Assembly (NCBI GenBank): GCA_026396615.1
Contig: JAPLWK010000008.1
Span: forward strand, 75,817-139,816
DNA: 64,000 bases
Source of the DNA: a candidate division WWE3 bacterium
GTDB lineage: Bacteria > Patescibacteriota > WWE3 > JAPLWK01
Direction: 5' to 3'
Below the pieces are notes generated by a model. The model ran no database searches, was not told the DNA's origin, and saw nothing but the letters and a program-made list of their open reading frames with translations. Below are positions 11,906 to 58,403 of this stretch, in pieces. The first letter of the stretch is position 1. Each line of letters starts with the position of its first letter. The translations under genes were made by a program, and so were the position numbers.

Positions 11906-13633
11906 TCACTTCACTTCAAACCAAGTGCTGTAAATCCAATCTTTCTCCGGGCTACGAACGTTAAAGGCGTAGCGAAAGCGGATGCCAGTGATCTCACCAC
12001 TATCGATTGACCGGTTGGACCCTTCGGCTTTAACCCATTTGACTCGGGAACTGCTGCCTCCCATCGTCTCCACAGACACTGATTTAACGGCTTCGATTGG
12101 CGTCTTCCCCTCACTCTTCAGCATCGAGCGGACATCTTCCATTGACGTTTTGCTGCTGACCTTATCCAAATCCGACGGACTTAAAAGAGCGGTATTTAAA
12201 ACGTCACCCATATCAATTTGTCCAATCTGGGTCCCCTCAGAACTATCCTTTTTTGGCGGAAAACTTTGGGTTTTCCAGGAATTACTCATGAGGGCACTCC
12301 AATTATTGTAGGGCGACATGGTGTCGTTAAAGTCTGTTGACCGAAGATAGGGATAAGCATCGTTAATAGAGCCTGAATCTTTATACTGCCGCGTATCGCT
12401 ATTAAAAGCAAACGACGGTGTGTCGCCAATAGAATCGGTGTGCGGCCCGGAAGTCGAGAAGTAAAAAGCCCGAATTGGTTCGCCTGAATAAACCATAATT
12501 TTACCCCGAGTTTTATCGGCGGCGTCTTTTTTGGCCGTCCCGCCAATGTAAACTTGACAAGCTTGAGTGGTACAAATGGAACTGTTATTTATGGCATAAG
12601 TGCGAGCGGCAATGATTTGGACCCGATCCATGACGGCGGCAGCATCACTATTAATTGTCCGCCACACCGGATCGGTTTCGCCAATTCCGGCTAAATACTC
12701 GTCCTCAAAGTTCATGCTTCCATAACCCTCGACGTTAATCGAGTCTTTAGAGACGGTCTTAAAGTCGATATCGTGATAATAAAATTTAAGAATCCTTTCT
12801 TCGTCCCAACCTTGGGCGGCCAACATAAAAGCGCCCCATTGGCTCATGCCCACTCCATGCTCCGTCCCGTAACCACCAATGCGCCACGAGGGAGCACCGG
12901 AGGCATTTGGAGTATTTGGGCGGCCGGACCCAGATTCTTTAATATTCTGAACGGCCGACTGCTGCCAACTCATTTGACTGCTAATCTCGGCACTTAAGTC
13001 CGACAGTTTCTGACCAAGAATGGCTTCCTGAGCGGCATATTGTGACAAACGAGCCGAGGCTTCATTCGCCTGATTTTTAAGTTTGCTTTGCAAATTAGCT
13101 AAGGCTTGTTGTTGAGCCAGCAATTGATTTTTAATGGACAGGGCTTCCGCTTTGTTGGCCTCAAAATTAGTGATCTCGTCGTTAAGATTGGTAACAGTGG
13201 CGCGAACGTTGTTTAAAGTGACTTTAAAATAGATTAGACGCTCCGGCCATTCCTGCCAGGAATTAGAAGAAAATAAGAGGACCAAAGGAATGACTTCGCC
13301 CCGTTTGTAATAATCCAAAACCGCCGCGTCTCGCAAAGTTTCCTGTATTGCAATTTTGCCTTTGCGATCAGCCAAACTGGCTTCAATTTGAGTTAAAGTT
13401 GACAGCGTGGCCGTAATTTTAGCTTGCACTGCCGCAATTTGAGAGTCGGTTAAGCCCAGTTTGGTAGACAAATCTTTTAGTTCCACCGCCAAGTTGTCTT
13501 TATCGGATTTGAGTTTAGACAGTTGAGTGGCGGTACTTTGATAATCATCCAAAATTGAAGCCGAGGCAACATTTCCGTTGACAGAAAGCGCCAGAGACAC
13601 TAGGATGATGGGAATGAAGAGAAACCACCGCAT
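11906..13633 (-). CDS. SpoIID/LytB-domain protein with signal peptide and long coiled-coil region
   Basis: GYGTEHGVGMSQWGAFMLAAQGWDEERILKFYY is the SpoIID/LytB signature. The N-terminus has EnvC-like coiled coils. The likely true start is MRWFLFIPIILVSLALS (about 13633); the longer ORF extension to 13804 was rejected. Confidence 0.55.
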   Translation of the reverse strand: MRWFLFIPIILVSLALSVNGNVASASILDDYQSTATQLSKLKSDKDNLAVELKDLSTKLGLTDSQIAAVQAKITATLSTLTQIEASLADRKGKIAIQETLRDAAVLDYYKRGEVIPLVLLFSSNSWQEWPERLIYFKVTLNNVRATVTNLNDEITNFEANKAEALSIKNQLLAQQQALANLQSKLKNQANEASARLSQYAAQEAILGQKLSDLSAEISSQMSWQQSAVQNIKESGSGRPNTPNASGAPSWRIGGYGTEHGVGMSQWGAFMLAAQGWDEERILKFYYHDIDFKTVSKDSINVEGYGSMNFEDEYLAGIGETDPVWRTINSDAAAVMDRVQIIAARTYAINNSSICTTQACQVYIGGTAKKDAADKTRGKIMVYSGEPIRAFYFSTSGPHTDSIGDTPSFAFNSDTRQYKDSGSINDAYPYLRSTDFNDTMSPYNNWSALMSNSWKTQSFPPKKDSSEGTQIGQIDMGDVLNTALLSPSDLDKVSSKTSMEDVRSMLKSEGKTPIEAVKSVSVETMGGSSSRVKWVKAEGSNRSIDSGEITGIRFRYAFNVRSPEKDWIYSTWFEVK

Positions 13634-13967
13634 TGGTTTGATTATACCAACTATTTTGGCTTCCCAATTTTTACTGGCTCCCAAAGTTTTGGCCGCGGAT
13701 ATTGCCACTAACGACATCGGTAGTTTTGTGGGCGGTATCGCAGTCGCGGCAGTGGGTATTGGCGGTGGTGTCGCTCTACTTTTAATAATTATTGGTGGCC
13801 TCATGTTTTCTTTAAGTCGTGGCGATCAGGATAAAGTTCAAAAGGCTAAAGATATGATCACCAGCGCTATTGCAGGGCTGCTCTTAATAATCTTCGCGAC
13901 TGTAATTCTTCGAGTCATCGGCGTTGATATCTTTGGTTTACCGGGAATGCCAGTCTTTAATTTCTAG
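13614..13967 (+). CDS. TrbC/VirB2-like pilin-family small membrane protein (paralog 1)
   Basis: Signal peptide MKRNHRIGLIIPTILASQFLLAPKVLAAD, then two hydrophobic helices separated by SRGDQDKVQKAKD. No class III prepilin motif, so this is not a type IV pilus pilin. Confidence 0.5.
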   Translation: MKRNHRIGLIIPTILASQFLLAPKVLAADIATNDIGSFVGGIAVAAVGIGGGVALLLIIIGGLMFSLSRGDQDKVQKAKDMITSAIAGLLLIIFATVILRVIGVDIFGLPGMPVFNF

Positions 13968-13969
13968 TT

Positions 13970-14920
13970 ATGAAATTTTTAAAAGTCTTTTTTTTGTGTT
14001 CGATTATCTCTGCAGCTCTAGTATTTTCAAGTCGACCTGTTTTGGCAGCTGCCGGAGACTGCGGAGCGGGCTCCTGTCCGGCTAATTATACCTGCCAAGC
14101 GACATCCAATCCGATATTTTGTTGCCCAGTTGCTACTCCGACTCTTACCGCTTGTGGCACCAGCTGCTGCGAAGTCGCTAATTGCTATCATCCGGCAATA
14201 GGTTTACCAACCTGCGTTAATACCAACACCAGTAACTTAAGCACCTGTGGAAGTAATCTCTGTGTCACACAAATTTGTTGTGATACAGGCACATTAGATA
14301 ACTGTGTGCCATTACCAGCTGCCGGTTGTAGTCAGCGTCAACGGGTAAACGATGGCTGCGATAGCGACGGCGTTACCTGTCACCTAAAGCCTACCGACGC
14401 TTCGGTCCCCGCGCGGTTCATCACCGCGGCCGGTTCTGAGTGTGGTAATCACTTATGTGACCCCGGTGAGGCGTGTGAGTTTTCGATTGTCGCCGGAGGC
14501 GTACCTTTTACCTGCGATGGCAATGGCGGCACATCACCACTACCTGCTGGACAAACTTGCAACGCCACCTGTACACAAATTATTTCCAACGGCCAAGGTG
14601 GAGCGATTAGCGGCAATCCCTCAACGTATCATCTTGACACCACTGCCATCGGGGTCACCCCTAAATTCACAACGCTTGGTGGCATTACTTCTTTTGTCGT
14701 TAAGACAATGGTCGGGTTGGCTGGCGTGGCTTTTATGATCATGTTTTTGATCGGCGCCTTTAAGTTTGTGACTTCCCAAGGCGATAAAGCGGCTGTAGAG
14801 AGTGCCAAAGGCACGATTACCAGTGCTTTTATTGGCGTGGCCTTAACGGCGGCCTTATTTGCTATAATGACGCTGCTACAGAACGTTTTTGGCGTTTCGT
14901 TACTAAACATCACGACCTAA
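13970..14920 (+). CDS. fusion protein: signal peptide, a Cys-rich extracellular domain of about 200 aa (about 40 Cys), and a C-terminal TrbC/VirB2-like pilin domain (paralog 2)
   Basis: The C-terminal 75 aa (VGLAGVAFMIMFLIGAFKFVTSQGDKAAVESAKGTITSAFIGVALTAALFAIMTLLQNVFG) are homologous to the neighbouring pilin paralogs. Confidence 0.5.
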   Translation: MKFLKVFFLCSIISAALVFSSRPVLAAAGDCGAGSCPANYTCQATSNPIFCCPVATPTLTACGTSCCEVANCYHPAIGLPTCVNTNTSNLSTCGSNLCVTQICCDTGTLDNCVPLPAAGCSQRQRVNDGCDSDGVTCHLKPTDASVPARFITAAGSECGNHLCDPGEACEFSIVAGGVPFTCDGNGGTSPLPAGQTCNATCTQIISNGQGGAISGNPSTYHLDTTAIGVTPKFTTLGGITSFVVKTMVGLAGVAFMIMFLIGAFKFVTSQGDKAAVESAKGTITSAFIGVALTAALFAIMTLLQNVFGVSLLNITT

Positions 14921-14923
14921 GTT

Positions 14924-15238
14924 ATGAACTTAATTACTAAAGCCTACGCTGTTGTGATTGATCCTGGAATGATTGGGGTTAAAAATATTACCCCGGAATC
15001 GGGAATTATGATGGTCGTTAAAGCTCTAATTGGCGCTTGCGGCTTTGGCGCTTTTATTTTTTTAATAATCGGTGGCGTCAAATTTGTGGTCTCAGCGGGA
15101 GACAAAGGGGCCGTGGAAAGTGCTAAAAAGACAATTACCTTCGCCGTCATCGGCCTGGTCCTGGCCGCGGCCGCTTTTGCAATTGCCTCCTTGTTACAAA
15201 ACGTATTAGGGATTAATATTCTAAATGTAACTATCTAA
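14924..15238 (+). CDS. TrbC/VirB2-like pilin-family protein (paralog 3)
   Basis: ALIGACGFGAFIFLIIGGVKFVVSAGDKGAVESAKKTITFAVIGLVLAAAAFAIASLLQNVLGI. Confidence 0.5.
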   Translation: MNLITKAYAVVIDPGMIGVKNITPESGIMMVVKALIGACGFGAFIFLIIGGVKFVVSAGDKGAVESAKKTITFAVIGLVLAAAAFAIASLLQNVLGINILNVTI

Positions 15239-15262: not shown

Positions 15263-15620
15263 ATGTTTTTAATCAAAGATCTATTAGTAAAAGCTGCGTA
15301 TGCGGCACCAATTGATATTTTTAAAACTGCAGACGCTACCAGCGTTGACTTAAAAATTCAGAATGTTCAGACAGTAGTTTCTACCGGTATTAAAGCCCTA
15401 ATCGGAGCCGCCGGTTTACTGTTCTTTGTGATGTTAGTCTGGGGTGGTATTCAATTCGTCACTTCTGGCGGCGATAAAGCTCAAGCTACCGCCGCTAAAG
15501 ACCGAATTACTCACGCTTTATTGGCATCGTAATTGTGGCAGCCGCTTTCGCTATTGCCACGTTGCTCCAAAACGTCTTAGGAATTGGAATTACCGATTAC
15601 AACATTAGTAATGCTTACTA
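15263..15620 (+). pseudogene. TrbC/VirB2-like pilin paralog 4, disrupted by a 1-nt deletion frameshift near 15518. It is a near-identical tandem duplicate of paralog 5
   Basis: nt 15401-15588 are identical to 15775-15963 except that a single C is missing. The ORF stops at 15532, but the out-of-frame downstream sequence encodes the conserved C-terminal helix (IVIVAAAFAIATLLQNVLGIG). A good RBS (AGGAGGTGA) is present. Confidence 0.5.
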
Positions 15621-15642
15621 AGGGAGGTGAATTGTTATAATT

Positions 15643-15996
15643 ATGAATTTTTTAAATATAATCTCTGGTAAAGCTTTCGCTGAAAGTGTATTTGTAACCG
15701 GAAATAAAGCCACCGCTGTAGGCTTAAATATCTCCGACACCGGACTTCTGGTGTCCACAGCTATCAAAGCCTTAATCGGAGCCGCCGGTTTACTGTTCTT
15801 TGTGATGTTAGTCTGGGGTGGTATTCAATTCGTCACTTCTGGCGGCGATAAAGCTCAAGCTACCGCCGCTAAAGACCGAATTACTCACGCTCTTATTGGC
15901 ATCGTAATTGTGGCAGCCGCTTTCGCTATTGCCACGTTGCTCCAAAACGTCTTAGGAATTGGAGTTACCAACTTCACGATCCAACAGGCTTACTAA
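15643..15996 (+). CDS. TrbC/VirB2-like pilin-family protein (paralog 5)
   Basis: ALIGAAGLLFFVMLVWGGIQFVTSGGDKAQATAAKDRITHALIGIVIVAAAFAIATLLQNVLGIG. RBS GGGAGGTGA. Confidence 0.55.
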   Translation: MNFLNIISGKAFAESVFVTGNKATAVGLNISDTGLLVSTAIKALIGAAGLLFFVMLVWGGIQFVTSGGDKAQATAAKDRITHALIGIVIVAAAFAIATLLQNVLGIGVTNFTIQQAY

Positions 15997-16059: not shown

Positions 16060-16368
16060 ATGGCTATATGCACAATTGGTGATCCACCCACTATAGATCA
16101 ACTGGGCCCCTGCTTTGTAAGCATTATTAAGCTAGTGGTAGGTTTTGCTGGGGTGGCTACCGTAATTGTGTTTTTAATTGGCACCGTTCAGTACATCACT
16201 TCCCGCGGTGACAAAGAAGGCGTTACCGCGGCTAAGGGTACCCTCACCTACGCCATTATTGGCCTGGTGGTGGTCGCCGTCGCCTTTGGGCTAGTCAGTC
16301 TTATTGACCGAACTATTCTTGGTGGAACCAACACTCTTCTCAACTTCGACGTTCCCAGTATTCACTAA
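16060..16368 (+). CDS. TrbC/VirB2-like pilin-family protein (paralog 6, most divergent)
   Basis: LVVGFAGVATVIVFLIGTVQYITSRGDKEGVTAAKGTLTYAIIGLVVVAVAFGLVSLI has the same architecture as the other paralogs. Confidence 0.45.
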   Translation: MAICTIGDPPTIDQLGPCFVSIIKLVVGFAGVATVIVFLIGTVQYITSRGDKEGVTAAKGTLTYAIIGLVVVAVAFGLVSLIDRTILGGTNTLLNFDVPSIH

Positions 16369-16444: not shown

Positions 16445-19400
16445 ATGCCCAAGCGAGTGTCGATAATATTGGAATTTTCATTATTATTAATTGCAATTAT
16501 TATTCTAAAACCAACCCCCGCCTTTGCCGCTGCTCCGGATCCCGTGGCCTGCTTCACCAACGAAGATCCCACCTTTGGGGGCGTTACTCGAGGCAATTCT
16601 ACCAGCTTTAATGTTCTATTGAACATGAAAATCACCGATTTCTACTGCGCCGCTCCTAACTGGCCCGTCGCTTCCGTTCTTGAAGGCAACGATGCCACGC
16701 ATATGGATGTTGGCACTAACTGCCCGGCGGCCAATGATCCGGCAGTCCTGGCTAAAATCGTGGCCCAACTAAAAAGCCAAATCGAGAATGTTTCCTTAAT
16801 CCCAGGTGCCATGACCAATCCCAGCGTTCTTAGTCAAGCCAATTTTCAGGGCGATACTACTTGGACGTTACTGCGACCGCCTAGTGATATTACTCCCAAC
16901 AAAGTCAACAATATTACCGGCCAAACCGCTCTTAATACAGTGGGCACTTCCAAGATTTACTACGCCGCCTGCACCAACGTGCCCGAGGTGGGACCGGTCT
17001 GGTTTTCAATGGCTAAAGACGTCCCAGCTCCTCAGGGCAAAGTCCTACCCTCGTATCGTAAAGAAGCCGCCGCCTCTTTTTACCTGCAAAATTATTTGAC
17101 CCAAGTGCCGGGTGACGATCCAATCATTAAAGAGCTTAAAAAGGAAACGCCGGTTTTTAATGACAATACTACCTCCGACCTTCTTCCCTTTCCAAAACTT
17201 AGCTTTCAGTTAGCCTCTCGAAAAATTGCCGAAAGCGATTATTTAATTTACTGGAAACTATGCGCCAAAAAGGGACCTGTGGACACAGTCAAAAAAAATA
17301 TTTCATGCCAACTTAGTAATTTTATTACTGACATCGAGCACACCGATGTTAGCGGTGCGAAAAGTCTGGTCGCCGAAATTCCTAACGATGCTTGGGGCAA
17401 GAACACCGGCGATGACTTCACTTGCTTTACCACCGGCGATTTCGACACCCATCCTCTTAAAGTGACAGCAACCCCAGGCAGCAGCTACCCGCTTTCCGTC
17501 AAACTCATTGGCACGCCGATTGACGAAAACGTTTGTCAGAATAATGCGCAGCTCGATAGTGCCGTTTATCTCGACCCCAATAATCAATTGGCATACAGCG
17601 GTTATTCGACTACCCCTCACGTGGCCTTCTGTAATGGCGTCAACTCAACAGTCGTCAACAATACCAGTCAGAGCGTGTGTATTGGTGGAGACTGTCATGT
17701 GACGGCGATTGCCAAATTTTTTAACGACGCTTCCGCTAAAATCAGTGCTGTTTTTGACAATTGGATTCATCAACTCACTCCTACTACTACTTGGGGTGAC
17801 GTAAATCCTGATTCCGCAGCGTCCTGTCAAAAGACAGCGGAAGATATTTGTAATGGCCCCAAAGGTCAAGGCGCTTCTGATAATCTAATCATCACCCAGT
17901 CCACGGACTTCAATTGGATTCAGGTGGATCCGGCCGCCAAACCGGTCGACAAAATAATTAAGGTTTTCGTTACCAACAATAGTAAAAGGGATGCCACCCT
18001 TAATGTTTACAGCCAAGTTCTGGTCACTAGCGAAAGATCGCTCCCGGTAACAATTACCACCTCCAATGCCGCGGGAAGCCAAAATAGTCCTCAAATTGCC
18101 GTTTACGGAAACACTATTTACTGGAATGGCCTGATCGTCCCCGCAAATGGCGTCACTACTGAACTTGATTATCACGTTAGCGTGACTGCAATAAACTCCG
18201 GAACTATTTCAGCTACTTCTGGTGTCAGTGGTGATATTTATAAAACTGTCACTTTTTATAGTGACACTAACTTTGCTTGTCAGAAAGTCGCTGGAGTTGG
18301 TACAAATTCCTGTGATCCTAAAAATAATGACGCCGACTGTAGCGCTAAGCACCTAGCATGTAATAACGGCACCGGTATCTGTGAGTTAGTAAACGGCGCC
18401 GGTACTAATACTTGTTTAACTAATTCCCAATGTAAAGACGACAAGCGACATCTTGACTGTGTAGGTAACGCCTGTGTGGCTGTGCAGGGGACTGGGGTAG
18501 ATAATTGTAATCGTTTGGCGAGTTGTAATACTACTACCCATACCGGTTGTAGCCTCGATTCGGCAAACCCAACTTGCGCGAGTTTTACTTATGTTGGTCC
18601 TAATAAACCAACCAATAATTGCAGTATCAGTGGTAATAGCGGATGCGACGGTGCTAACTCCTCAAGTTTTCATATGGAGTGCAGCAGCGTCGGTAAACCC
18701 GAGCCTAGAGATGTTTCGCAGCCCGAATCGACTTCCACGCAGTCCGGCTTAATTACCGTTTCCAGTACCAACGCTTCTGACGATGAAAACTTATGTGTGA
18801 AGATTGCGAAAATCGTCTGCTATATAACCACTATGCCGTCCCTAATGAGCGGTTACTCCTACACCCAACCTCTAGAGGTTAAAGTTTATCCGTACCCGGA
18901 GGCTTCATATACTCAAGGCATAGACACGCAAGCCGCCAGCCCTAAGGATGGTCTTTTTAATCTCTTCTACGCGCCTGGACAAGATAACAAAATCGCCGCT
19001 TTAAGCGAAAAGGATGTTGACGCCAAAGCCGGATTAAATACTAATATAAACGGTAACAGCCCCGCCACCGACGCTTCGATTAAAGGCAGCCAACAGACCC
19101 TGTCGCCTTTGAAGTATCTGCAGAAAAATGCCCTCTGCCCTCCCGGTCAAGAGGCAACCTGCCCCGATATGCCCCAAACTGTCAACGAGGCGATGCCAAC
19201 TGACGGGAGCATTCCACCTCCCGATACTCCACCGCTACCAGGACCAGTTGTTCCCGGCGCCAACGTTGGCTTCAGCGTTCCAGCTTGCACCGGAGGCAAT
19301 GACGTGGCCATTTCCCAGCGTTCGACCTACACCCAAAATATATTAGCCCAAGCCGCAGCAGCCGAGGGCGTTCCAGTGAGTTTATTAACAGCTATTTTGA

Positions 19401-19852
19401 CCGTCGAAAGCGGTAACGACGCTCTAATCTCCGCCAACGGGACCGCCCCCGTCTGCGTTACTTCTGTTTGTAGTGCTCGCGGCTGGTTTCAAATCACTAG
19501 CGGCTATCAAAATGTGGATTGTAGTGAGTGCAGCGCTTGGTGCTGTGATTACAATAATGACAGCATTAAAGAAGCGGTGTGCTTAGAATCTAGAAGCGCT
19601 TTTGATCCCCCCGGAAATTTTGACCTCTGCAACCCAGCCCAGTCCGCCATCGCCGCTGCTAAAGTTTTAAAGGCTAAGATGGGTGTCGATGGTACACACG
19701 TGTGGACGATCGATGATGCCTGTGTAGCTGCTGCTCGCTACTTTGGAGCGGATAGCTCAGCCTGTGAAACCAGTGGTGGTTATTATCCGCGCCTTGCTAA
19801 CTGTACTTATGGCGGATTTGTAAAAAAGTTTGTGAATATTACCGGACTTTAG
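16445..19852 (+). CDS. giant secreted Cys-rich protein (1135 aa) with C-terminal lytic transglycosylase (SLT, VirB1-like) domain
   Basis: Signal peptide. Three tandem G-x-G-T-N-x-C-x5-6-C modules lie at aa about 620-690. A Pro-rich linker (PPPDTPPLPGPVVPG) follows. The C-terminal LTAILTVESGNDA...GWFQITSGYQ matches the SLT catalytic E-S motif and the GLMQ-type motif. Confidence 0.55.
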   Translation: MPKRVSIILEFSLLLIAIIILKPTPAFAAAPDPVACFTNEDPTFGGVTRGNSTSFNVLLNMKITDFYCAAPNWPVASVLEGNDATHMDVGTNCPAANDPAVLAKIVAQLKSQIENVSLIPGAMTNPSVLSQANFQGDTTWTLLRPPSDITPNKVNNITGQTALNTVGTSKIYYAACTNVPEVGPVWFSMAKDVPAPQGKVLPSYRKEAAASFYLQNYLTQVPGDDPIIKELKKETPVFNDNTTSDLLPFPKLSFQLASRKIAESDYLIYWKLCAKKGPVDTVKKNISCQLSNFITDIEHTDVSGAKSLVAEIPNDAWGKNTGDDFTCFTTGDFDTHPLKVTATPGSSYPLSVKLIGTPIDENVCQNNAQLDSAVYLDPNNQLAYSGYSTTPHVAFCNGVNSTVVNNTSQSVCIGGDCHVTAIAKFFNDASAKISAVFDNWIHQLTPTTTWGDVNPDSAASCQKTAEDICNGPKGQGASDNLIITQSTDFNWIQVDPAAKPVDKIIKVFVTNNSKRDATLNVYSQVLVTSERSLPVTITTSNAAGSQNSPQIAVYGNTIYWNGLIVPANGVTTELDYHVSVTAINSGTISATSGVSGDIYKTVTFYSDTNFACQKVAGVGTNSCDPKNNDADCSAKHLACNNGTGICELVNGAGTNTCLTNSQCKDDKRHLDCVGNACVAVQGTGVDNCNRLASCNTTTHTGCSLDSANPTCASFTYVGPNKPTNNCSISGNSGCDGANSSSFHMECSSVGKPEPRDVSQPESTSTQSGLITVSSTNASDDENLCVKIAKIVCYITTMPSLMSGYSYTQPLEVKVYPYPEASYTQGIDTQAASPKDGLFNLFYAPGQDNKIAALSEKDVDAKAGLNTNINGNSPATDASIKGSQQTLSPLKYLQKNALCPPGQEATCPDMPQTVNEAMPTDGSIPPPDTPPLPGPVVPGANVGFSVPACTGGNDVAISQRSTYTQNILAQAAAAEGVPVSLLTAILTVESGNDALISANGTAPVCVTSVCSARGWFQITSGYQNVDCSECSAWCCDYNNDSIKEAVCLESRSAFDPPGNFDLCNPAQSAIAAAKVLKAKMGVDGTHVWTIDDACVAAARYFGADSSACETSGGYYPRLANCTYGGFVKKFVNITGL

Positions 19853-21497: not shown

Positions 21498-22508
21498 TTA
21501 TTGCAACGCCTTGACGAAATATACAGCCGTCGTCGACCGCCCATCCGCCAACGTCACCGTCCCACTAAACGCATATACCGGTTCCAAATACGTACCTCCC
21601 TTACGAGTTTCCAGATACTCAAGTTTAACGTCAGTGAAACTGGCGGCATTAATTCCCGCCACCATCGCCAAACTATCTCCTACAATTCCCAAAGTCGCGA
21701 GAGTCGCCCGTCCAGCCTTTAAGTCTTCCAAAGCCGTTTCGATCGTCTTTAAAGGATAAACCCCAAAACTACCGTCACCATTTTGCAGCAAATGATAGTA
21801 AAACTTACCGGAAATTAGACCGTCATTTTGCCAACCAAAAGTTATCAGGGTTTCGTCACCAGGCAAACTGGTTACCGGCACATTATTAACGATTCGCAGC
21901 ACATTAAAATCGCCGGTTGGCGTATTTAAAGGCTGGTCGAAACTTAAATCAGGATAATTTAAATCCAGTGATTTTAATAGATTCTGCAGCACTTCGGTCT
22001 TTGAAGAAGCCTCCCCGCCAAATGACGCGATATCGCGAGGCTGCGCCAAGTTAAAAATAAAGCCATCGCTTACGGAATCGTAAAATAGATAATTGCCTTT
22101 TTCCTGCCACGTCTGACCCCCAAAAGTCGGTTTTGACTTAACCGTAAAACCTAATTTGACCGCCAATTTGTCTAGGGTGGACGGGGTTAAAACAGCTGTT
22201 TGCCCAAAGCGATAGACTCGAGCGGTCGCTGGAAACTTTAAAGTCGCTGTATCAATAAAGCTCTGCATGGCTGAAGGAGTGGCTCCCGGAATCGGGCTCG
22301 GTGGTAAAGAAATGACCGGCAGCGAGCCGAAAGTTTGGCTAACAGGCTCGCTAGGCACGGTAGTTGAAGTTGCCGGGGTCGTTGGTGCCGAGCTGCGCGA
22401 GGCCAACAAAAAGATGATTAAACCAATCCCGACAGCGCTAATAATGGCAATGGCCAGGATTTTATTATTCGCATAAAACTCTTTAAAAGCGGCAATATAT
22501 TTATCCAT
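21498..22508 (-). CDS. bitopic membrane protein (N-terminal TM anchor, Pro/Thr-rich linker, extracytoplasmic domain)
   Basis: TM ILAIAIISAVGIGLIIFLLA. Its start codon abuts the stop of the upstream 1178-aa gene. A VirB8/PrgL-like role is pure speculation. Confidence 0.35.
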   Translation of the reverse strand: MDKYIAAFKEFYANNKILAIAIISAVGIGLIIFLLASRSSAPTTPATSTTVPSEPVSQTFGSLPVISLPPSPIPGATPSAMQSFIDTATLKFPATARVYRFGQTAVLTPSTLDKLAVKLGFTVKSKPTFGGQTWQEKGNYLFYDSVSDGFIFNLAQPRDIASFGGEASSKTEVLQNLLKSLDLNYPDLSFDQPLNTPTGDFNVLRIVNNVPVTSLPGDETLITFGWQNDGLISGKFYYHLLQNGDGSFGVYPLKTIETALEDLKAGRATLATLGIVGDSLAMVAGINAASFTDVKLEYLETRKGGTYLEPVYAFSGTVTLADGRSTTAVYFVKALQ

Positions 22509-25500: not shown

Positions 25501-26044
25501 CTGAAGAGCTGATAGCCCCAGTAACAGGATCTTCTACAACTAAACCTTTACCACCGATACCGTGATTCTCACCTTTAACTAAAGGCTGCCAAAAATACTC
25601 CAGCTCTGCAACTGCTTCTAGATCTTCCGTGTTAACTACTGCTTTCCACCAATTATCTGCAGTTTTTTCTAAAACTTTCTCAGGGTCATCTAACCAATCT
25701 TTTAAATTTAGGGAGAGTGGGGTGCCCGCAGCTCCTGGGAGGTCCCTGAGTTCTTGTTTAGTAGTTTCTACATCAATATCCTTCTCACGATCACCTTCAG
25801 GGTTATAGCGAGCGCTCAAGAAGCGGTTTATATCTGCACCTAAATTTTTATAAACTTTAGCCGGATAAGTACCAATATTTAAATCGTCTATAAAAGCGTC
25901 AAAATCGCCCTCGTCTAAAAGTCCACCCCCGTACTCATAAGGCTCCCATTCTTTTACGTAGCCTCGAGCAATCGGTTTTCTACCTTTTGGGGGAACTTTT
26001 TTAAAACTCCGGCCTGGGCCTCGCTTCTTTTTGGGTGGTGGCAT
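22508..26044 (-). CDS. giant protein (1178 aa). It has a highly basic N-terminus, a long alpha-helical region with a Gly/Ala/Lys-rich amphipathic segment and a TM, a DUF11/CARDB-like beta domain, and a C-terminal peptidase M23 (LytM) domain
   Basis: The C-terminal TGYSTGYHLHYEI and HALIAGNACRYA...YGVYIDI match the M23 HxxxD / HLH metal-binding motifs. The N-terminus is MPPPKKKRGPGRSFKKVPPKGRKP. A tape-measure-like AL-K-rich stretch lies at aa about 720-800. Confidence 0.55.
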   Translation of the reverse strand: MPPPKKKRGPGRSFKKVPPKGRKPIARGYVKEWEPYEYGGGLLDEGDFDAFIDDLNIGTYPAKVYKNLGADINRFLSARYNPEGDREKDIDVETTKQELRDLPGAAGTPLSLNLKDWLDDPEKVLEKTADNWWKAVVNTEDLEAVAELEYFWQPLVKGENHGIGGKGLVVEDPVTGAISSSASVIVNGTDMYKKVANDIQKWGITRGSRPSRLKNYQDLQVDLLDSINAQINAANLTSMLASPNPAVQAAALRWQNLQGSAIEVADKVDPFAVAPPTQTVTYSYTDTSGVVQTGYTDSGGVFHPFSGDIQGRKWDNLRFDISTKGKIQDRFNKGLSSMSPATAGLGVLAVPFVPQPLVIGAAAAASMTNPDLKAARDKFWEKEKEYQEMYKNVDQTWKDVLKGGTQYLTDLGLSATEATRMVTWVKLVNYRETQSTATDFLEAVDSKSFFKFFVWGTRVAKYIPGISQYAKYLSPADYVSFAMKKVKTFGLLNGFDDTDITGWQPFYKLTKAVADHPKLANVVNRLSFGLIDTENFGYIHVIDKFDAFGASTWDPVKKEYKDVAKRTIKLTAGKVSSALGFADTDWKVVNFLQKAASIIDPSTNLPLVSAAEINGILSGAPGSIDVLQAVIGRSVSQAPGMTRDVAGLTAGELATFLAKNPQIKAFLTSHGIIDATGSVSDLTKFAKFWEDIDSHGLAKKYIGAVSSVGKNLDHLQSVAFEALFKRVPWLKGPINFFRGGWVKSAAADPKAWALLLKTRLISSGAKMALKLGLKGALKVALKAVLGAILGGIEALSNALPVLGPIITAVLAWIGQKLLGKIWSAIKGPVSKAAAFYWRPFKMTVFTDYGFMSSGENIKVVSCGCCAVGCLFPLLLFGAMGVIGGANFNAHGGADAGAASPNLKVEMSVDRPIITLNSSPAVVYTIKVTNISSSELIGLNVNYNYQPGHGVSYGSCTPSGTESGGNISFGSGTLAAGASITYTCNMTVYTTTSRFIVATVTATGTISGASVSNSATAVIKVGTPAEIAPCGLPDGAASVTFGCSWHQGSEGLLAVDLPYGDGTEIHALIAGNACRYAVSTENNNNLPYGVYIDITGDGGYRTRYAHLQPIAGDSGSGYMPGKPTGSCWHVGIGGIVGKTGSTGYSTGYHLHYEIFDPSGSRVCPETYVNSTAAVCSGGS

Positions 26045-54405: not shown

Positions 54406-56289
54406 TTATGGAATGTTAACCTCTGTTACGCCACTTGACCCCGATGTTAGATTTTCTTTAAGTTCCTCAGTTTTAGCGTCTTCTTTAATTTTTAAAACCT
54501 CGGAAGGCTTAGTGGTAATTAATTTATGCTCTTCAGGCGAGGCGACGACTTGGATGGCGACGTGATTAGCGCCGGCAAAGAACAGACCCTCTCCAATGCC
54601 AGCGGAGAGTAATAATCTTTTTTCCCCGTCAGACAAGTAGAAAACGTCGCCCAATTTGTCGATTTCTGAAGGACTTTGCTTTAGCAGTATTTGCAGTGAA
54701 GAGTTGGAAATAATGGCTTGGCCAAAGTCGGTTCCTAAAAAGTCGCCGACATTTTGAGTAATTGTGGTTAGTCCCAAGAAATATTTGCGGCAACGCTTGG
54801 CCATGGAGTATAGGAAACTGGCGCTATCGGGGCTTTGCATCATATACCAAGCTTCATCCACAATTAAAATCCGTTTCTTCATTTCTCGTTTTACTTTAGT
54901 CCAAATGTAATCAAGGATAATAAACATGGCAATGGGCCGCAGCACATCCTCCAGTTGCTTGGTTGAAAAGACCGTAAAGCTGTTATCTAAATTTAAATTA
55001 CTATGGTGATCAAAAATCCCGGCCATACTGCCCTTAATATATCTTTCGAGTCTGGTCGCCAAACCTTTGGCCTCGACTTCTTCCATGCCCAGCAACACTT
55101 TATAAAGATCTTCCATCAATGGCGGCTCTTGGGTGCGCTGGGTTTCGGGATCGGGAGTAATGCCCTTTAGCTTGTAGGTAGCCACCAAAGCGCGATCCAA
55201 AATGGCCTCCTCAGTGTTACTAATTGTGCCGTAAATTATTTTAAAAAGCGAGTGCAGACTTAAGATTTTTAAACCTAGTTCATTCTCACCACTACCTGTG
55301 ACGCCAGCCAGATCAAAAGGATTTATTTTAGATTGAGAGCTTGAGGAAAATTCGATGTACTCGCCGCCAACCGCTTCACATAAGCGGTCGTACTCATTTT
55401 CCGGATCTAGTACAATCACGTCAGTTCCAAACATTAAGGAGCGTAAAGCCTCTAATTTCACAAAGTAAGACTTTCCGGCCCCGGCCTTGGCAAAAACCAC
55501 CGAGTTAGCGTTTTCCAAAGTAAAGCGGTCAAAAATAACTAAAGAACCGTTATGTTTATTAATACCATATAGAATTCCTTCGTTGCTGGTTAATTCTGAT
55601 GAGGTAAAGGGAAACGTCGTTGCCAAAGAGGTCGTGTCCATGTTCCTGGTCACTAAAATCTTGTCTAAACAAGTCGGCGTGGTGGTTTGAAAAGCCTGTT
55701 CCATTTGTAAAGTGGCGTGTTTAGAAATAATCATGATCGAGCCTAGTGTCCCTTCGACCCGCTTAGTGACAGCATTTAATTCATCCAGGTTAGTGGCCGG
55801 AATCGTAATATATAAGGAGAATTGGAAAAAGCGTTCCGCTCCTTTTACTAATTGATCTTGCAGCGATTTAGCGTCCTCCAAAGCGGCCCGCACTGTTGGA
55901 TCCACCACTTTACCATGCTCGCTATCGGAAGCTAATGTTGCCTCCATTTCGGCAATTTTATGCCGTAAATCATCTAAAACTCCTTGGGCTTGAACCGGAT
56001 AATAAAACATGGAAATGTCTAAGGTATGATCAAAAGTAATTAATGGTGATAGCCAGTTGGCGCCGACGAATCTGGGGTAGCCGGAAACAAAGAGGGTCCT
56101 AAAAAAAGTGGTTCCGATTTTTAAATGATCAAAGTCTACCTCGATGGCTGAGGGAGCAATAATGTCGGCTACATTAACCATGCCGGCGGCCAAAGTTTGA
56201 GCCGGATTATCCGTCGGGGTTTCGGGAGCGGCGGCTGGTGTTTTTTTCTTCCCCGGTAATAAATCTCTAAAATTTAAGTATAAGGCCAT
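54406..56289 (-). CDS. VirB4-family T4SS ATPase (Gram-positive TraE/PrgJ type), C-terminal 627 aa including the ATPase core
   Basis: IEVDFDHLKIGTTFFRTLFVSGYPRFVGANWLSPL (the CagE_TrbE_VirB region), Walker A VVFAKAGAGKSYFVK, and Walker B ILIVDEAW. The start codon lies 3 nt after the in-frame TAA of the upstream ORF. Confidence 0.75.
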   Translation of the reverse strand: MALYLNFRDLLPGKKKTPAAAPETPTDNPAQTLAAGMVNVADIIAPSAIEVDFDHLKIGTTFFRTLFVSGYPRFVGANWLSPLITFDHTLDISMFYYPVQAQGVLDDLRHKIAEMEATLASDSEHGKVVDPTVRAALEDAKSLQDQLVKGAERFFQFSLYITIPATNLDELNAVTKRVEGTLGSIMIISKHATLQMEQAFQTTTPTCLDKILVTRNMDTTSLATTFPFTSSELTSNEGILYGINKHNGSLVIFDRFTLENANSVVFAKAGAGKSYFVKLEALRSLMFGTDVIVLDPENEYDRLCEAVGGEYIEFSSSSQSKINPFDLAGVTGSGENELGLKILSLHSLFKIIYGTISNTEEAILDRALVATYKLKGITPDPETQRTQEPPLMEDLYKVLLGMEEVEAKGLATRLERYIKGSMAGIFDHHSNLNLDNSFTVFSTKQLEDVLRPIAMFIILDYIWTKVKREMKKRILIVDEAWYMMQSPDSASFLYSMAKRCRKYFLGLTTITQNVGDFLGTDFGQAIISNSSLQILLKQSPSEIDKLGDVFYLSDGEKRLLLSAGIGEGLFFAGANHVAIQVVASPEEHKLITTKPSEVLKIKEDAKTEELKENLTSGSSGVTEVNIP

Positions 56290-56292
56290 AAA

Positions 56293-56988
56293 TTAAGCAA
56301 TCATCGGCTCCACAATGGGGGCGGTATATTCACTGGTATCCTTTATTTTCTGCTCCCTGGAACTGGCGGGGTTATAAATATCATAAAAAAGCGACACCAA
56401 TTCTTCGGTGTTTAATTGCCGAGCTTTAACCCCCATTTTAGAAAATTCTTTAATAATATGATCTCTTTTGGGGATTAATTGGCTAACCGACTTCTTTAAA
56501 ATATATTCGGTATCTACATAAACTCTTTTAGTGGTGACGCCAAATAAGTTTAGCAGCCAATCGAAGGGGCCACTCCCTGTCGCCGACGTGACAATTCCGT
56601 AAGGAATAATCACGTAGAATTTTTTATCTAAGACATCATTTTGGGTAATTAATTCTTCAATAAATTTTCGATACCCAATTACCTGGCCTCGTAACTTTTC
56701 ATTAGCCTGGCCCTCTTCCGCTTTTGTGAGTATCTCCAAATAATTAGATACGTCCATTCTTTTACTGCGAATCACGATTTGAATCGGGAAAGATAGAGAA
56801 TTTAATAGACCGGCGTAAGCGGCAATCATACTATCTTGCTCGCGTTCAGAAAGGAGGTCAAAGTTAACGGCGGTGGTTTGAATCACTATGGCCGCCCCGC
56901 CGGTTTTTAGAATCAAAGTATCATTCTTAATATCCGCGATATCAATGTGTTGCTGAGTGGAAGCATTTATGGGAGTGTTATATTTCAT
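56293..56988 (-). CDS. N-terminal domain of the VirB4/TraE-like ATPase, encoded as a separate ORF in the same frame
   Basis: DIADIKNDTLILKTGGAAIVIQTTAVNFDLLSEREQDSMIAAYAGLLNSL...KKFYVIIPYG parallels the first 200 aa of Gram-positive VirB4 homologs (PINFxLxSExEQ ... RFFVIxxY). Confidence 0.55.
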   Translation of the reverse strand: MKYNTPINASTQQHIDIADIKNDTLILKTGGAAIVIQTTAVNFDLLSEREQDSMIAAYAGLLNSLSFPIQIVIRSKRMDVSNYLEILTKAEEGQANEKLRGQVIGYRKFIEELITQNDVLDKKFYVIIPYGIVTSATGSGPFDWLLNLFGVTTKRVYVDTEYILKKSVSQLIPKRDHIIKEFSKMGVKARQLNTEELVSLFYDIYNPASSREQKIKDTSEYTAPIVEPMIA

Positions 56989-58403
56989 AGATTAGGCTTG
57001 CTGACGAAGTTTAACGTTGGTAAGAGCCTCCCATCAGCAATTACTTCCATTGTAGCAAACTTGCTCCCCGGGAGGCTCGCGGTGACCCGATATTTGCCGT
57101 TAGGGAGCGGGGTGGAGACTACGAATTCTCCTAAATCATTGGTTTTAAGGGCTCTTAAGGGGTCGCCGGTGTCATCTTTAACGATAATAATAACGCCTTG
57201 AATCAGTTTTCCCAAACTATCTTTAACAACGCCATTTATTACATTAGGGCTGGCAGTGAGAGAGCGGCTTTTGTCGATTTTTGGCTCTTCCAATATTTCC
57301 TGGGCGGCATTACCCATTGTAGGTTGAATAGGTACGATAGGTTTGATAGGTGTTATAGGTGTATTGATCGGTGGGTTGGTTCTTAAAGCGGCTAGGTTTT
57401 GTTTCATTTCTTCAAATTCGGCTGCGATTTGTTTTTTTTTAGTTTTCTCGTCTTCTTTAACCTTTAATTCCGCCGCTTCGGCAGCCTTAGTCTCCATTTC
57501 CAGTTTTTTAAGTTCCGCGGTTAGGAGTGGCGGGACTTCATCGACCGTTTTTGGGGCCGGCACCATCGTTGGCATTTGAACGGGACTGTTAAAACCCCGT
57601 TTTTCCCTAATTTTAGTCACCAATTTTTCTAAATTTGTGACTTGTTCGGTAATACTGGCCTCCTGGGGTTTAGTTGTAACCTCGTCATTATTAGGAAGGG
57701 ACGCACCATAAACACTTTTAGCCGGAATATTCATTTGAGTTTGGGTATCTTCAATCTTTAAGGCGCGACCGGCATTACCTTCGGGAGTTACGGTCACTTC
57801 CGGTGGGGTTTCAATAGTCGTTGTGGTTGTCGTCGGAGCGGTCGTTGTTAAATTACCGGGTACTGAAACATTAAAATTTAAATGTTCTAAGTAAAGTTCT
57901 TCGGCGAGATCGAATTTATTTTTAGGTTTATTACTTTGGGCTGCTCCCAGATAAGTCATTAAACGGGCCCGAGAGTTGGCGGGAGCAATTATTAGCGCTT
58001 CATTTTTAAGGGCGGAGGCGTAATCAGCCAGTAGAAATTTAGGCGCCAGTGGCTCTTTTTTCCAGGCCCGCAAGGTCGGACTACTTATTGCTTTCCAAAA
58101 ATTACGAATCCAAACATCCAGACCCCGATTTTCAAAAGGCACGAACGCAAAAGCCAAGCCTCCCAAACTAATAAGAGCAACAAGCGGCCACTTAAAAATA
58201 AATACCAGATGTGAAGAGTACACTGCATAGGCACCAACTACCCCTGTCGCGGCATATACGAATTGGCGGACTGTCATCGAGCCAATCAACTTAAATTCCA
58301 CACTCATGATGTTCTGGGGAACGGGGTGCTGTTTACTGGATGAAAAGTCGGTGGTTGGTAGTGGCATCGACCCTATTATAGTAGAATGCAACCATAAATA
58401 CAC
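56985..58403 (-). CDS. PrgI-like (VirB3-analog) two-TM N-terminal domain fused to Pro/Thr-rich linker, coiled coil and C-terminal Ig-like/carboxypeptidase-regulatory-like domain
   Basis: N-terminal KLIGSMTVRQFVYAATGVVGAYAVY...WPLVALISLGGLAFAFVPFENRGLDVWIRNFWKAI. The C-terminus is VKDSLGKLIQGVIIIVKDDTGD...NGKYRVTAS. It overlaps the VirB4 N-domain ORF by 4 nt. Confidence 0.4.
   Translation of the reverse strand: MYLWLHSTIIGSMPLPTTDFSSSKQHPVPQNIMSVEFKLIGSMTVRQFVYAATGVVGAYAVYSSHLVFIFKWPLVALISLGGLAFAFVPFENRGLDVWIRNFWKAISSPTLRAWKKEPLAPKFLLADYASALKNEALIIAPANSRARLMTYLGAAQSNKPKNKFDLAEELYLEHLNFNVSVPGNLTTTAPTTTTTTIETPPEVTVTPEGNAGRALKIEDTQTQMNIPAKSVYGASLPNNDEVTTKPQEASITEQVTNLEKLVTKIREKRGFNSPVQMPTMVPAPKTVDEVPPLLTAELKKLEMETKAAEAAELKVKEDEKTKKKQIAAEFEEMKQNLAALRTNPPINTPITPIKPIVPIQPTMGNAAQEILEEPKIDKSRSLTASPNVINGVVKDSLGKLIQGVIIIVKDDTGDPLRALKTNDLGEFVVSTPLPNGKYRVTASLPGSKFATMEVIADGRLLPTLNFVSKPNL

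What the first reader, a model, noticed from the sequence alone, without database searches (positions are those of the whole stretch)
13970..14920. Pilin-domain protein carrying a 200-aa cysteine-rich extracellular domain
Paralog 2 has a signal peptide followed by about 200 residues containing about 40 cysteines (CGAGSCPANYTCQ..CCPV..CGTSCCEVANCYHP...). It then runs directly into a canonical VirB2/TrbC-like two-helix pilin domain. VirB2-type pilins are normally minimal, so a pilin fused to a disulfide-rich module would be a candidate tip or adhesin subunit. The neighbouring giant protein (16445) has Cys-spaced GxGTNxC repeats, which suggests a shared binding theme.
Basis: partly seen in the sequence, partly recalled or inferred. 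Interest (0 to 1): 0.6.

Follow-up and report, generated by a model that had tools for sequence, protein, structure and literature searches.

The report
Secretion-system pilin carrying a cysteine-rich surface domain
An ultrasmall (candidate phylum WWE3) bacterium encodes, second in a row of six small secretion-system pilin genes, one pilin that carries an extra 190-residue cysteine-rich outer domain found almost nowhere else, which makes it a plausible, untested candidate for the part of the pilus that grips a host cell.

Summary
The ORF is real: 13970-14920 (+), 316 aa, uninterrupted. It has a Sec-type signal peptide, a Cys-rich segment, a Gly/Ser/Thr linker, and a two-helix C-terminal module. 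That module matches PF18895 T4SS_pilin and is 40-48% identical to three of the neighbouring short pilins.

The cysteine count was overstated: 25 in total and 24 in residues 31-201, not about 40. This is still about 12-fold above the window background.

The fusion is not an assembly artefact. Four other proteins from independent metagenome contigs have the same layout, and one 8.8-kb contig has the same gene order.

The pilin module is conserved (52-79% identity). The N-domain is mosaic, 33 to 334 residues long, and has no detectable relative outside this small clade. It has no Pfam match and no usable AlphaFold model. It shares no detectable similarity with the neighbouring giant protein.

Among the 150 best-scoring relatives of this protein, 32 carry unannotated N- or C-terminal extensions, several of them Cys-rich. 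The papers on Patescibacteria secretion systems that I read do not describe such modular pilins.

Best reading: a modular, VirB2-like minor pilin that displays a fast-evolving disulfide-rich binding domain. This is a new variant of a known kind. The function is inferred, not shown.

The parts
13970..14047 (+). Signal peptide of the long pilin (residues 1-26, predicted cleavage after VLA)
   Evidence: Sequence inspection of the translation. A hydrophobic segment at residues 1-27 appears in the Kyte-Doolittle scan. The homologs P0003, P0004 and P0005 have equivalent N-terminal hydrophobic leaders.
14048..14344 (+). Cys-rich module A (residues 27-125, 16 Cys). Alignable only with the N-terminal parts of P0003 and P0004.
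   Evidence: Alignment A3 shows 32-35% identity with conserved Cys columns. BLASTP of residues 2-72 against P0003 gives E 7.6e-10 as a pairwise value. There is no Pfam hit at E <= 10.
14345..14431 (+). Variable middle segment (residues 126-154, 2 Cys). In P0003, P0004 and P0005 this position holds one to three CG..NG..PTNLC..W.W.C repeats that are absent here.
   Evidence: Alignments A1 and A3 and the sequences.
14432..14572 (+). Membrane-proximal Cys-rich module C (residues 155-201, 6 Cys, motif CGNxxC[DE]xGExCE). Shared by P0001-P0004.
   Evidence: Invariant columns C132, N134, C137, E141, C143, E144, C156 and C171 of A3. Pairwise BLASTP gives 33-43% identity with E 2.7e-8 to 6e-10.
14573..14671 (+). 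Gly/Ser/Thr-rich linker and conserved pre-helix motif (residues 202-234, ...YHLDTTAIGV...). Homologs have Pro-rich linkers at this position.
   Evidence: Alignment A1 columns 390-430. pLDDT is below 50 through residue 221.
14672..14920 (+). T4SS_pilin (VirB2-like) module: helix 1, the loop TSQGDKAAVESAKG, helix 2, the C-terminal LLNITT, and the stop codon.
   Evidence: PF18895 matches residues 235-296 at E 1.5e-5. NF045849 pilin-like is weak at E 0.0014. AF2 helices lie at 236-268 and 273-307. Identity to P0002-P0006 is 52-79%. There are 3124 phmmer hits, nearly all through this module.
13578..13967 (+). Pilin paralog p1, with a classical signal peptide. The true start is probably a Met near 13605-13614. 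Its stop lies 2 nt before the ATG of the long pilin.
   Evidence: PF18895 at 39.2 bits, above the cut-off.
14924..15238 (+). Pilin paralog p3, the closest paralog of the long pilin's C-terminal module (48% identity). It starts 3 nt after the long pilin's stop codon.
   Evidence: PF18895 at 31.9 bits. Alignment A1.
15263..15621 (+). Pilin paralog p4: a near-identical duplicate of p5 with a 1-nt deletion that truncates the ORF at 15532.
   Evidence: Direct repeats D1 and D2 have spacing 374 versus 375. PF18895 scores 29.3 bits on the truncated ORF.
15643..15996 (+). Pilin paralog p5
   Evidence: PF18895 at 41.1 bits.
16060..16368 (+). Pilin paralog p6
   Evidence: PF18895 at 38.0 bits.
54406..58403 (-). 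Core genes of the secretion system, about 38 kb away: a VirB4/TraG-like ATPase (54406-56289), a 231-aa ORF, and a PrgI/VirB3-like protein fused to a CarboxypepD_reg domain (56985-58403). They lie beside dnaA, dnaN and yidC.
   Evidence: P-loop_TraG at E 1e-30 and AAA_10. PrgI at 31.8 bits. dnaA, dnaN and yidC are.

Best explanation
The gene encodes a modular VirB2-like pilin of the Patescibacteria type IV secretion apparatus.

Shown by sequence:
- A Sec-type signal peptide.
- About 190 residues of low-hydrophobicity sequence with 24 Cys.
- A flexible linker.
- A two-helix pilin module homologous to the five short pilins encoded around it.

Inferred steps:
- The signal peptide sends the N-domain across the single membrane.
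- The two helices insert as a hairpin with both ends outside and the GDK loop inside, as in VirB2 and TraA pilins.
- Outside the cell the 24 cysteines form up to 12 disulfides, which stabilise small knotted modules.
- When pilins are drawn from the membrane into the fibre, this subunit is incorporated as a minor subunit, at the tip or sparsely along the shaft. Its N-domain sits on the outer surface and binds a ligand on a host or partner cell.
- It would thus supply the adhesin role for which no VirB5-like or PrgB-like protein was found in these bacteria.
- The N-domain varies fast through module gain, loss and replacement while the pilin module is kept. This is the pattern expected for a specificity determinant.
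For: - The ORF is intact and Cys-enriched.
- The pilin module matches PF18895 and aligns with the paralogs. It gives phmmer E-values down to 1e-22 against proteins that pass the PF18895 cut-off.
- The same architecture occurs in P0002-P0005 from independent samples.
- Gene order is conserved in L001: SpoIID-like gene, short pilin, long pilin, short pilin(s).
- Divergence between window and L001 orthologs: pilin module 60% identical; flanking orthologs 52-66%; N-domains 188 versus 119 residues and 33% identical over 102 columns. Across the clade the N-domain length ranges from 33 to 334 residues.
- The N-domain has no relatives outside the clade. A single-sequence search of 5.8 billion proteins found only itself. 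A profile search added only P0004. In the exhaustive 1.84-billion search, only P0002-P0005 extend upstream of residue about 150 among the 150 hits listed.
- Extracellular extensions at either end of pilin modules recur in the family. Several are Cys-rich: P0021 has 38 Cys, and P0025 and P0119 have 26 each. Both ends of a hairpin pilin face outward, so this is consistent with display.
- VirB4-like and PrgI-like genes lie in the same window.
- Literature: pilin arrays of 2-11 genes are common in Patescibacteria, and no adhesin such as PrgB was detected there (PMC12102498). The pilins are essential in S. epibionticum (PMC10633639).
Against: - No experiment or structure shows that any PF18895 protein forms a fibre.
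- This protein's own PF18895 score (25.4 bits) is 1.2 bits under the curated cut-off.
- Both AlphaFold models of the N-domain are uninformative: pLDDT below 50 and 37.6. No fold, disulfide map or binding site can be given.
- Foldseek against PDB gives only a non-significant top hit, to an archaeal conjugation pilin (8dfu, E 2.1).
- The array is 38 kb from virB4, not adjacent to it.
- No disulfide-forming enzyme was seen in the window.
- A 190-residue domain on every subunit would probably not fit a tightly packed VirB2-type fibre. Incorporation at low stoichiometry is therefore an assumption.
Confidence: 0.5

Rival explanations
1. It is a membrane-anchored surface protein rather than a fibre subunit. 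The pilin-like hairpin serves only as a two-helix membrane anchor, or as a docking element at the base of the secretion machine. The Cys-rich domain acts at the cell surface as a receptor-binding, wall-binding or protective domain.
For: The bulky N-domain would be hard to pack into a VirB2-type fibre. Many relatives are poly-pilins with 2-6 hairpins in one chain, which fits polytopic membrane proteins more naturally than fibre subunits. No pilus made of PF18895 proteins has been demonstrated (PMC12857230 speaks only of a 'potential to elaborate conjugative pili').
Against: The pilin module is as well conserved as in the short paralogs, including the invariant G-D loop. The gene sits inside the pilin array and is translationally coupled to p1 and p3. 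The 60% identity of the pilin module between orthologs suggests more constraint than a simple anchor would need.
Confidence: 0.27
2. It is a pro-protein. The N-domain is cleaved off near residue 215 and released as a secreted disulfide-rich peptide or protein (effector, toxin or signal). The remaining pilin joins the fibre like its short paralogs.
For: VirB2/TrbC pilins are known to be processed at both ends (general knowledge). The conserved motif Y-x-[VL]-[DN]-x-x-x-I-G that follows the linker corresponds to the very N-terminus of the short paralog p3. The long pilins therefore look like short pilins with an N-terminal addition.
Against: No conserved cleavage-type motif precedes that position in P0001-P0006 (GNPST|Y, HPSD|Y, AAQT|Y, APVV|Y, IAGP|Y). 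A classical signal peptide is already present at the N-terminus. The linkers are Pro- or Gly-rich, as in tethers.
Confidence: 0.13
3. The cysteines bind metal (zinc or iron-sulfur clusters) rather than forming disulfides, which would make the domain a redox or metal-handling module.
For: The Cys density is very high and includes CC pairs.
Against: The domain follows a Sec signal peptide, so it is extracytoplasmic. No CxxC/CxxH-type metal motifs or His partners are evident (3 His in 188 residues). There are no Pfam metal-binding matches. The mature domain has an even number of Cys (24), as do P0003 (28) and P0004 (32 in the N-domain).
Confidence: 0.05
4. It is an artefact: two genes joined by an assembly or sequencing error, or a non-coding frame that happens to stay open.
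For: The source is a metagenome-assembled genome. A neighbouring paralog (p4) does carry a 1-nt frameshift.
Against: The same fusion occurs in four other proteins from different sequencing runs. The reading frame is continuous through a conserved linker. No other frame holds an ORF longer than 98 aa.
Confidence: 0.02

Closest known systems
Tandem arrays of VirB2-like pilins (Pfam PF18895 T4SS_pilin) in Patescibacteria type IV secretion systems (Quinonero-Coronel et al. 2025, PMC12102498; Wang et al. 2023, PMC10633639)
   Same: It has the same domain family and lies in a six-gene array in a Patescibacteria (WWE3) chromosome. The paralogs within the array are divergent. VirB4-like and PrgI-like genes lie near dnaA in the same window.
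   Different: The passages I read in those papers (retrieved by term searches for pilin, VirB2, fused, fusion, adhesin and additional domains) describe small pilins only. They mention no extra pilin domains and state that no adhesins were found. This member carries a 190-residue Cys-rich extracellular domain in front of the pilin module.
VirB2/TrbC/TraA conjugative pilins of Gram-negative T4SS (Pfam PF04956; T-pilus, F-pilus)
   Same: It has a leader, two hydrophobic helices and a short polar or basic loop. The predicted topology puts both ends outside. The top Foldseek hit, though not significant, is a conjugation pilin.
   Different: PF04956 does not match this protein. Those pilins are 70-120 residues long with no added domain. 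There is no evidence of cyclisation or of a fibre here.
VirB5-type pilus-tip adhesins and the variable TrwL/TrwJ (VirB2/VirB5) paralogs of Bartonella Trw
   Same: The proposed role is the same: host-specific attachment through variable, multi-copy pilus components (PMC12857230).
   Different: There is no sequence relationship. VirB5 is a separate helical protein, not a pilin fusion. No VirB5 family was reported in the Pfam scan at E <= 0.1.
Modular type IV pilins of type IV pili (for example S. sanguinis PilB/PilC, in which a pilin module is fused to a functional domain).
   Same: The design principle is the same: a polymerisable pilin module plus a grafted binding module displayed on the filament.
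   Different: This is an unrelated pilin superfamily. Type IV pilins have a class III signal peptide and one N-terminal helix, with the extra module at the C-terminus. Here a Sec signal peptide comes first, the extra module is N-terminal, and the pilin is a two-helix hairpin.

Membership tests
PF18895 T4SS_pilin (VirB2-like pilins of Patescibacteria and monoderms) | Profile match at or above Pfam's gathering score | tested here: inconclusive
   The score is 25.4 bits against a cut-off of 26.6, with E 1.5e-5. All five neighbouring paralogs pass, at 29.3-41.1 bits.
PF18895 T4SS_pilin (VirB2-like pilins of Patescibacteria and monoderms) | Significant direct homology to proteins that are members above threshold | tested here: met
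   phmmer gives E 3e-22 to P0008, 4.6e-18 to P0020 and 5.5e-18 to P0021 through residues about 226-313. These proteins score 54-80 bits on PF18895. Identity to paralog p3 is 48%.
PF18895 T4SS_pilin (VirB2-like pilins of Patescibacteria and monoderms) | Two hydrophobic helices joined by a short polar loop with the conserved S-x-G-D motif | tested here: met
   Hydrophobic segments lie at 238-269 and 281-314. AF2 helices lie at 236-268 and 273-307. S269, G271 and D272 are invariant in A1.
PF18895 T4SS_pilin (VirB2-like pilins of Patescibacteria and monoderms) | Genomic association with T4SS core genes (VirB4, PrgI/VirB3) | tested here: met
   A VirB4/TraG-like ATPase lies at 54406-56289 and a PrgI-like gene at 56985-58403, in the same window but about 38 kb away. 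PMC12102498 found the pilin gene near virB4 in 1135 of the 1948 assemblies that had both.
PF18895 T4SS_pilin (VirB2-like pilins of Patescibacteria and monoderms) | Polymerises into an extracellular filament | not testable with these tools
   This needs microscopy or biochemistry. As far as I found, it has not been shown for any member.
PF04956 TrbC/VirB2 pilins | Profile match | tested here: not met
   There is no hit at E <= 0.1 for this protein. Only paralog p1 hits, at 20.1 bits, below the 27.9-bit cut-off.
PF04956 TrbC/VirB2 pilins | Fold similarity to solved conjugative pilins | tested here: inconclusive
   The top Foldseek PDB hit is 8dfu, the Aeropyrum pernix conjugation pilus, with E 2.1, probability 0.44 and target-normalised TM-score 0.57. 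This is not significant, and helical hairpins are promiscuous.
Known cysteine-rich extracellular domains (hevein/chitin-binding, granulin, EGF, knottin-type families in Pfam) | Profile match of the N-domain to any curated family | tested here: not met
   No Pfam family matches at E <= 10 for the N-domain of P0001, the N-terminal modules of P0003 and P0004, or the giant protein's repeats. There is no PDB sequence match at E <= 1.
Type IV pilins of type IV pili (modular pilins) | Class III signal peptide, a conserved N-terminal hydrophobic helix, and the extra module at the C-terminus | tested here: not met
   The N-terminus is a Sec-type leader ending in VLA|AA. The extra module precedes the hydrophobic part. 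No type IV pilin family appears in the Pfam scan. This was judged by inspection of the sequence.
VirB5 pilus-tip protein family | Profile match | tested here: not met
   The Pfam scan of the whole protein at E <= 0.1 returned only PF18895.

The most novel reading that the evidence does not exclude
Patescibacteria may build their essential secretion-system pilus from a mix of plain pilins and 'modular' VirB2-like pilins. The modular pilins would carry N- or C-terminal disulfide-rich domains that serve as interchangeable host-recognition adhesins, replacing the missing VirB5 and PrgB proteins. The WWE3 long pilin would be one instance of a broad, undescribed class that also includes poly-pilin chains and pilins with Cys-rich C-terminal domains. 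Its rapid N-domain turnover would track host range.
Probability: 0.3. Interest if true: 0.72.

Novelty: new variant of a known kind. Interest (0 to 1): 0.5.

Why it matters
- How Patescibacteria recognise and attach to their hosts, and what their essential type IV secretion system does, are open questions (PMC11665869, PMC12857230).
- The published survey found pilin arrays but no adhesin.
- A pilin that carries its own fast-evolving extracellular domain is a concrete, testable candidate for the missing specificity element.
- VirB2-type pilins with grafted domains are not part of the current picture of type IV secretion.
- If the domain is displayed on a filament, it would also be a natural precedent for protein display on VirB2-type pili.

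Tried and rejected
- **Structure of the N-domain.** AlphaFold2 on the full protein with 9 sequences gave pLDDT 50, and below 50 for residues 64-221. On the N-domain alone with 4 sequences it gave pLDDT 37.6. No fold or disulfide map can be derived.
- **Relatives of the Cys-rich module.** A single-sequence search of 5.8 billion proteins found only the protein itself. A profile search added only P0004. The genome collection gave two distant Saccharimonadales pilin loci. The metagenome scan gave one truncated contig.
- **Hevein-like or chitin-binding idea** for the first module (CG...CP.N..C....CC...CG..CC...C). No Pfam hit at E <= 10, so I dropped it as unsupported.
- **Internal 31-residue repeat** suggested by CGxxxC at residues 31, 62, 93 and 158. 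Local alignment scores are not above composition-matched shuffles (z <= 2.2), so I rejected it.
- **Shared module with the giant protein at 16445.** The best BLASTP E-value is 1.1, so I rejected it.
- **Silent N-domain cassettes elsewhere in the window.** tblastn with the N-domains of P0001, P0003, P0004 and P0005 hits only the gene itself.
- **Foreign origin.** GC rises to 0.52-0.56 inside the N-domain, against 0.44 for the whole window. Similar values occur in other genes nearby, so this is not evidence of transfer.
- **PDB sequence search** of the protein found nothing at E <= 1.

Full report
**What is there**

The window is chromosomal DNA of a Patescibacteria (CPR) bacterium. The exact protein is in NCBI as 'MAG: pilin [candidate division WWE3 bacterium]', on a 213-kb contig. 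The window also holds housekeeping genes: dnaA, dnaN, yidC, dnaG, rpoD, pnp, infB, nusA, dnaK, a tmRNA and tRNAs.

At 13970-14920 (+) there is one uninterrupted ORF of 316 codons. No overlapping ORF in any frame exceeds 98 aa. It is the second of six same-strand genes between 13578 and 16368. All six match Pfam PF18895 T4SS_pilin.

The stop codon of p1 lies 2 nt before its ATG, and p3 starts 3 nt after its own stop. This looks like translational coupling within one operon. Promoter-like sites lie upstream of p1, but the scan is barely above the shuffle expectation.

**Anatomy of the protein**

- Residues 1-26 are a Sec-type leader ending in VLA|AA (by inspection).
- Residues 27-214 contain 24 Cys, 22 Gly, 21 Thr, 20 Ala, 14 Ser, 14 Pro and 13 Asn. 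They hold few hydrophobic, aromatic or charged residues, and the net charge is -9. This composition is typical of small disulfide-stabilised modules.
There are 25 in all, one of them in the leader.
- The enrichment is still extreme: 13.7% against 1.1% in the window's long open frames, P about 4e-19.
- After a Gly/Ser/Thr linker come two long helices (AF2 236-268 and 273-307, pLDDT 70-76). They are separated by TSQGDKAAVESAKG.
- This module scores 25.4 bits on PF18895, 1.2 bits under the cut-off. It is 48% identical to p3, and among the ten columns invariant across all the paralogs it keeps S269, G271 and D272.
- It gives phmmer E-values of 1e-18 to 1e-22 against proteins that pass the PF18895 cut-off comfortably. 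Homology of the C-terminus to the paralogs is therefore established.
- It does not match PF04956 TrbC/VirB2. 'VirB2-like' is the accurate label.

**Is the fusion real?**

Yes.

- Four other proteins (P0002-P0005), each from a different assembly, have a Cys-containing N-domain, a linker and the same pilin module.
- A fifth, P0006, has a very short version with a 33-residue mature N-domain.
- The 8.8-kb contig that carries P0005 has the same order as the window: SpoIID-like gene on the opposite strand, a short pilin with a signal peptide, the long pilin, then short pilins.

A missed stop or frameshift is thus very unlikely. This is worth stating because the neighbour p4 does carry a 1-nt deletion relative to its near-identical duplicate p5.

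**How the two parts evolve**

- Across P0001-P0006 the pilin module is 52-79% identical. The mature N-domains are 33 to 334 residues long.
- Only two pieces of the N-domain are shared. The first is roughly the first 100 residues (16 Cys), found in P0003 and P0004 at 32-35% identity. The second is a membrane-proximal module of about 47 residues with the motif CGNxxC[DE]xGExCE, found in P0001-P0004.
- Between them, P0003, P0004 and P0005 hold one to three copies of a CG..NG..PTNLC..W.W.C repeat that this protein lacks.
- Between the window and the syntenic contig, the flanking orthologs are 52-66% identical and the pilin module 60%. The N-domains align over only 102 columns, at 33%.
- The N-domain alone finds nothing but itself among 5.8 billion proteins. 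A four-sequence profile adds only P0004.
- In the exhaustive search of 1.84 billion representatives, 3124 proteins match. Among the 150 listed, only P0002-P0005 extend upstream of residue about 150.
- There is no Pfam family at E <= 10 and no PDB sequence at E <= 1.

The N-domain is a lineage-restricted, mosaic, fast-changing module attached to a conserved pilin.

**Wider family**

I classified the 150 best representatives with a local pilin-module HMM.

| Class | Count |
|---|---|
| Plain short pilins | 69 |
| Two or more pilin modules, no extension | 49 |
| N-terminal extension of at least 90 residues | 24 |
| C-terminal extension of at least 60 residues | 8 |

- Some proteins hold up to six pilin modules in one chain.
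- Five of the C-terminal extensions are Cys-rich: 38, 26, 26, 18 and 18 Cys.
- Ten of these extended proteins were scanned. All pass PF18895, and none of their extensions matches any Pfam family.
- The ranking favours multi-module proteins, so these are not unbiased frequencies.

They do show that 'pilin module plus unannotated extracellular module' arose repeatedly, at either end of the hairpin. Both ends of a VirB2-type hairpin face outward. That fits display better than chance fusion.

**Mechanism, committed but inferred**

1. The signal peptide exports the N-domain.
2. The hairpin inserts with its loop on the cytoplasmic side.
3. The cysteines oxidise into disulfides. The count is even in P0001, P0003 and P0004, but odd in P0005.
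4. The subunit enters the filament as a minor component, or remains at the surface.
5. It presents a binding domain whose rapid turnover reflects partner specificity.

This fits the literature. Pilin arrays of 2-11 genes are widespread in Patescibacteria, their variability has been suggested to aid adaptation to hosts, and no PrgB-like adhesin was found (PMC12102498). The pilins are essential in S. epibionticum (PMC10633639). T4SS of Patescibacteria are described only as having the 'potential' to make pili (PMC12857230).

None of these steps has been tested. The main rival is that the hairpin is merely a membrane anchor. A second rival is that the N-domain is cleaved off. I found no conserved cleavage motif before the pilin module.

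**The neighbour claim**

The giant secreted protein at 16445-19852 has 45 Cys, a signal peptide and three V.G.GT(N/D).C repeats. Its last 316 residues give a weak SLT lytic-transglycosylase hit (16.5 bits, E 0.0064). It may therefore be a VirB1-like wall-active or wall-binding protein. It shares no detectable sequence with the pilin's N-domain (best E 1.1). 'Shared binding theme' is not supported beyond both being Cys-rich secreted proteins.

**Verdict**

- The interpretation as an adhesin-bearing pilin is reasonable but unproven.
- The protein is a member, by homology, of the Patescibacteria VirB2-like pilin family, and it is already annotated as 'pilin'.
- What appears undescribed is the modular architecture. 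Searches of the paper library for modular or fused VirB2 pilins, and for Cys-rich pilins in Patescibacteria, found nothing relevant.
- I rate it a new variant of a known kind, with moderate interest.

Noticed in passing
window 15263-15621 versus 15643-15996: Pilin gene p4 is a near-identical duplicate of p5 (96% and 88% over 141 and 104 nt). It has a single-base deletion ('gctttattggc' versus 'gctcttattggc') that truncates it to 89 aa. This could be a pseudogene, a sequencing error, or a switchable copy.
   Followed up: partly
window 16445-19852: A giant secreted protein (1135 aa, 45 Cys) has three repeats of about 31-33 residues, V.G.GT(N/D).C, near 18278-18577. Its C-terminal 316 residues give a weak SLT lytic-transglycosylase match (16.5 bits, E 0.0064). 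It is a possible VirB1-like wall-binding or wall-cutting partner of the pilin array.
   Followed up: partly
window 54406-58403 (-), beside dnaA at 48286-49641: The T4SS core genes (VirB4/TraG-like ATPase, a 231-aa ORF, and a PrgI/VirB3-like protein fused to a CarboxypepD_reg domain) sit next to the replication-origin genes dnaA, dnaN and yidC. This matches the origin-proximal placement reported for Patescibacteria. They are 38 kb from the pilin array.
   Followed up: partly
proteins P0017, P0059, P0010, P0022 and others (relatives): Many relatives are single polypeptides with 2-6 tandem pilin modules ('poly-pilins'): 71 of the 150 best representatives. I did not find this architecture described in the papers I read.
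   Followed up: partly
proteins P0021, P0025, P0056, P0119, P0150: These are multi-pilin proteins with Pro-rich linkers and 245-400-residue Cys-rich C-terminal extensions (18-38 Cys) that have no Pfam match. They are an independent version of the 'pilin plus Cys-rich module' theme.
   Followed up: partly
C-termini of window 13970-14920, 14924-15238 and 15643-15996, and of P0002-P0006: Pilins of this clade carry a conserved N-[IVF]-[TS]-[ITV] motif, at the very C-terminus (LLNITT, LNVTI, LLNITI) or, in p5, five residues before it (TNFTI). It has the form of an N-glycosylation sequon or a processing signal. Its meaning is unknown.
   Followed up: no
window 14924-14950, 15263-15304, 15643-15681: The short pilins p3, p4 and p5 begin with very short N-termini that end in K-A-[YF]-A or A-A-Y-A. 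They lack a Sec signal peptide, whereas p1 and the long pilin have classical ones. This suggests two insertion or processing routes within one array.
   Followed up: no
window 11906-13804 (-) and 13578-13967 (+): The SpoIID-like ORF as mechanically listed overlaps pilin p1. Its likely true start is the internal Met before a signal peptide (MRWFLF..., near 13660). That still leaves the 5' ends of the two divergent genes overlapping by about 50 nt.
   Followed up: no
window 22508-26044 (-): A 1178-aa membrane protein carries DUF11 and a C-terminal M23 peptidase. Wall-active domains of this kind are reported in VirB1-like proteins of Patescibacteria (PMC12102498).
   Followed up: no
P0003, P0004, P0005, P0006 (and L001 7428-8165): A repeat of about 45 residues, CG..NG......PTNLC..G.........W.W.C, occurs one to three times in the N-domains of the homologs. 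It has no Pfam family, and it is absent from the window's protein.
   Followed up: partly
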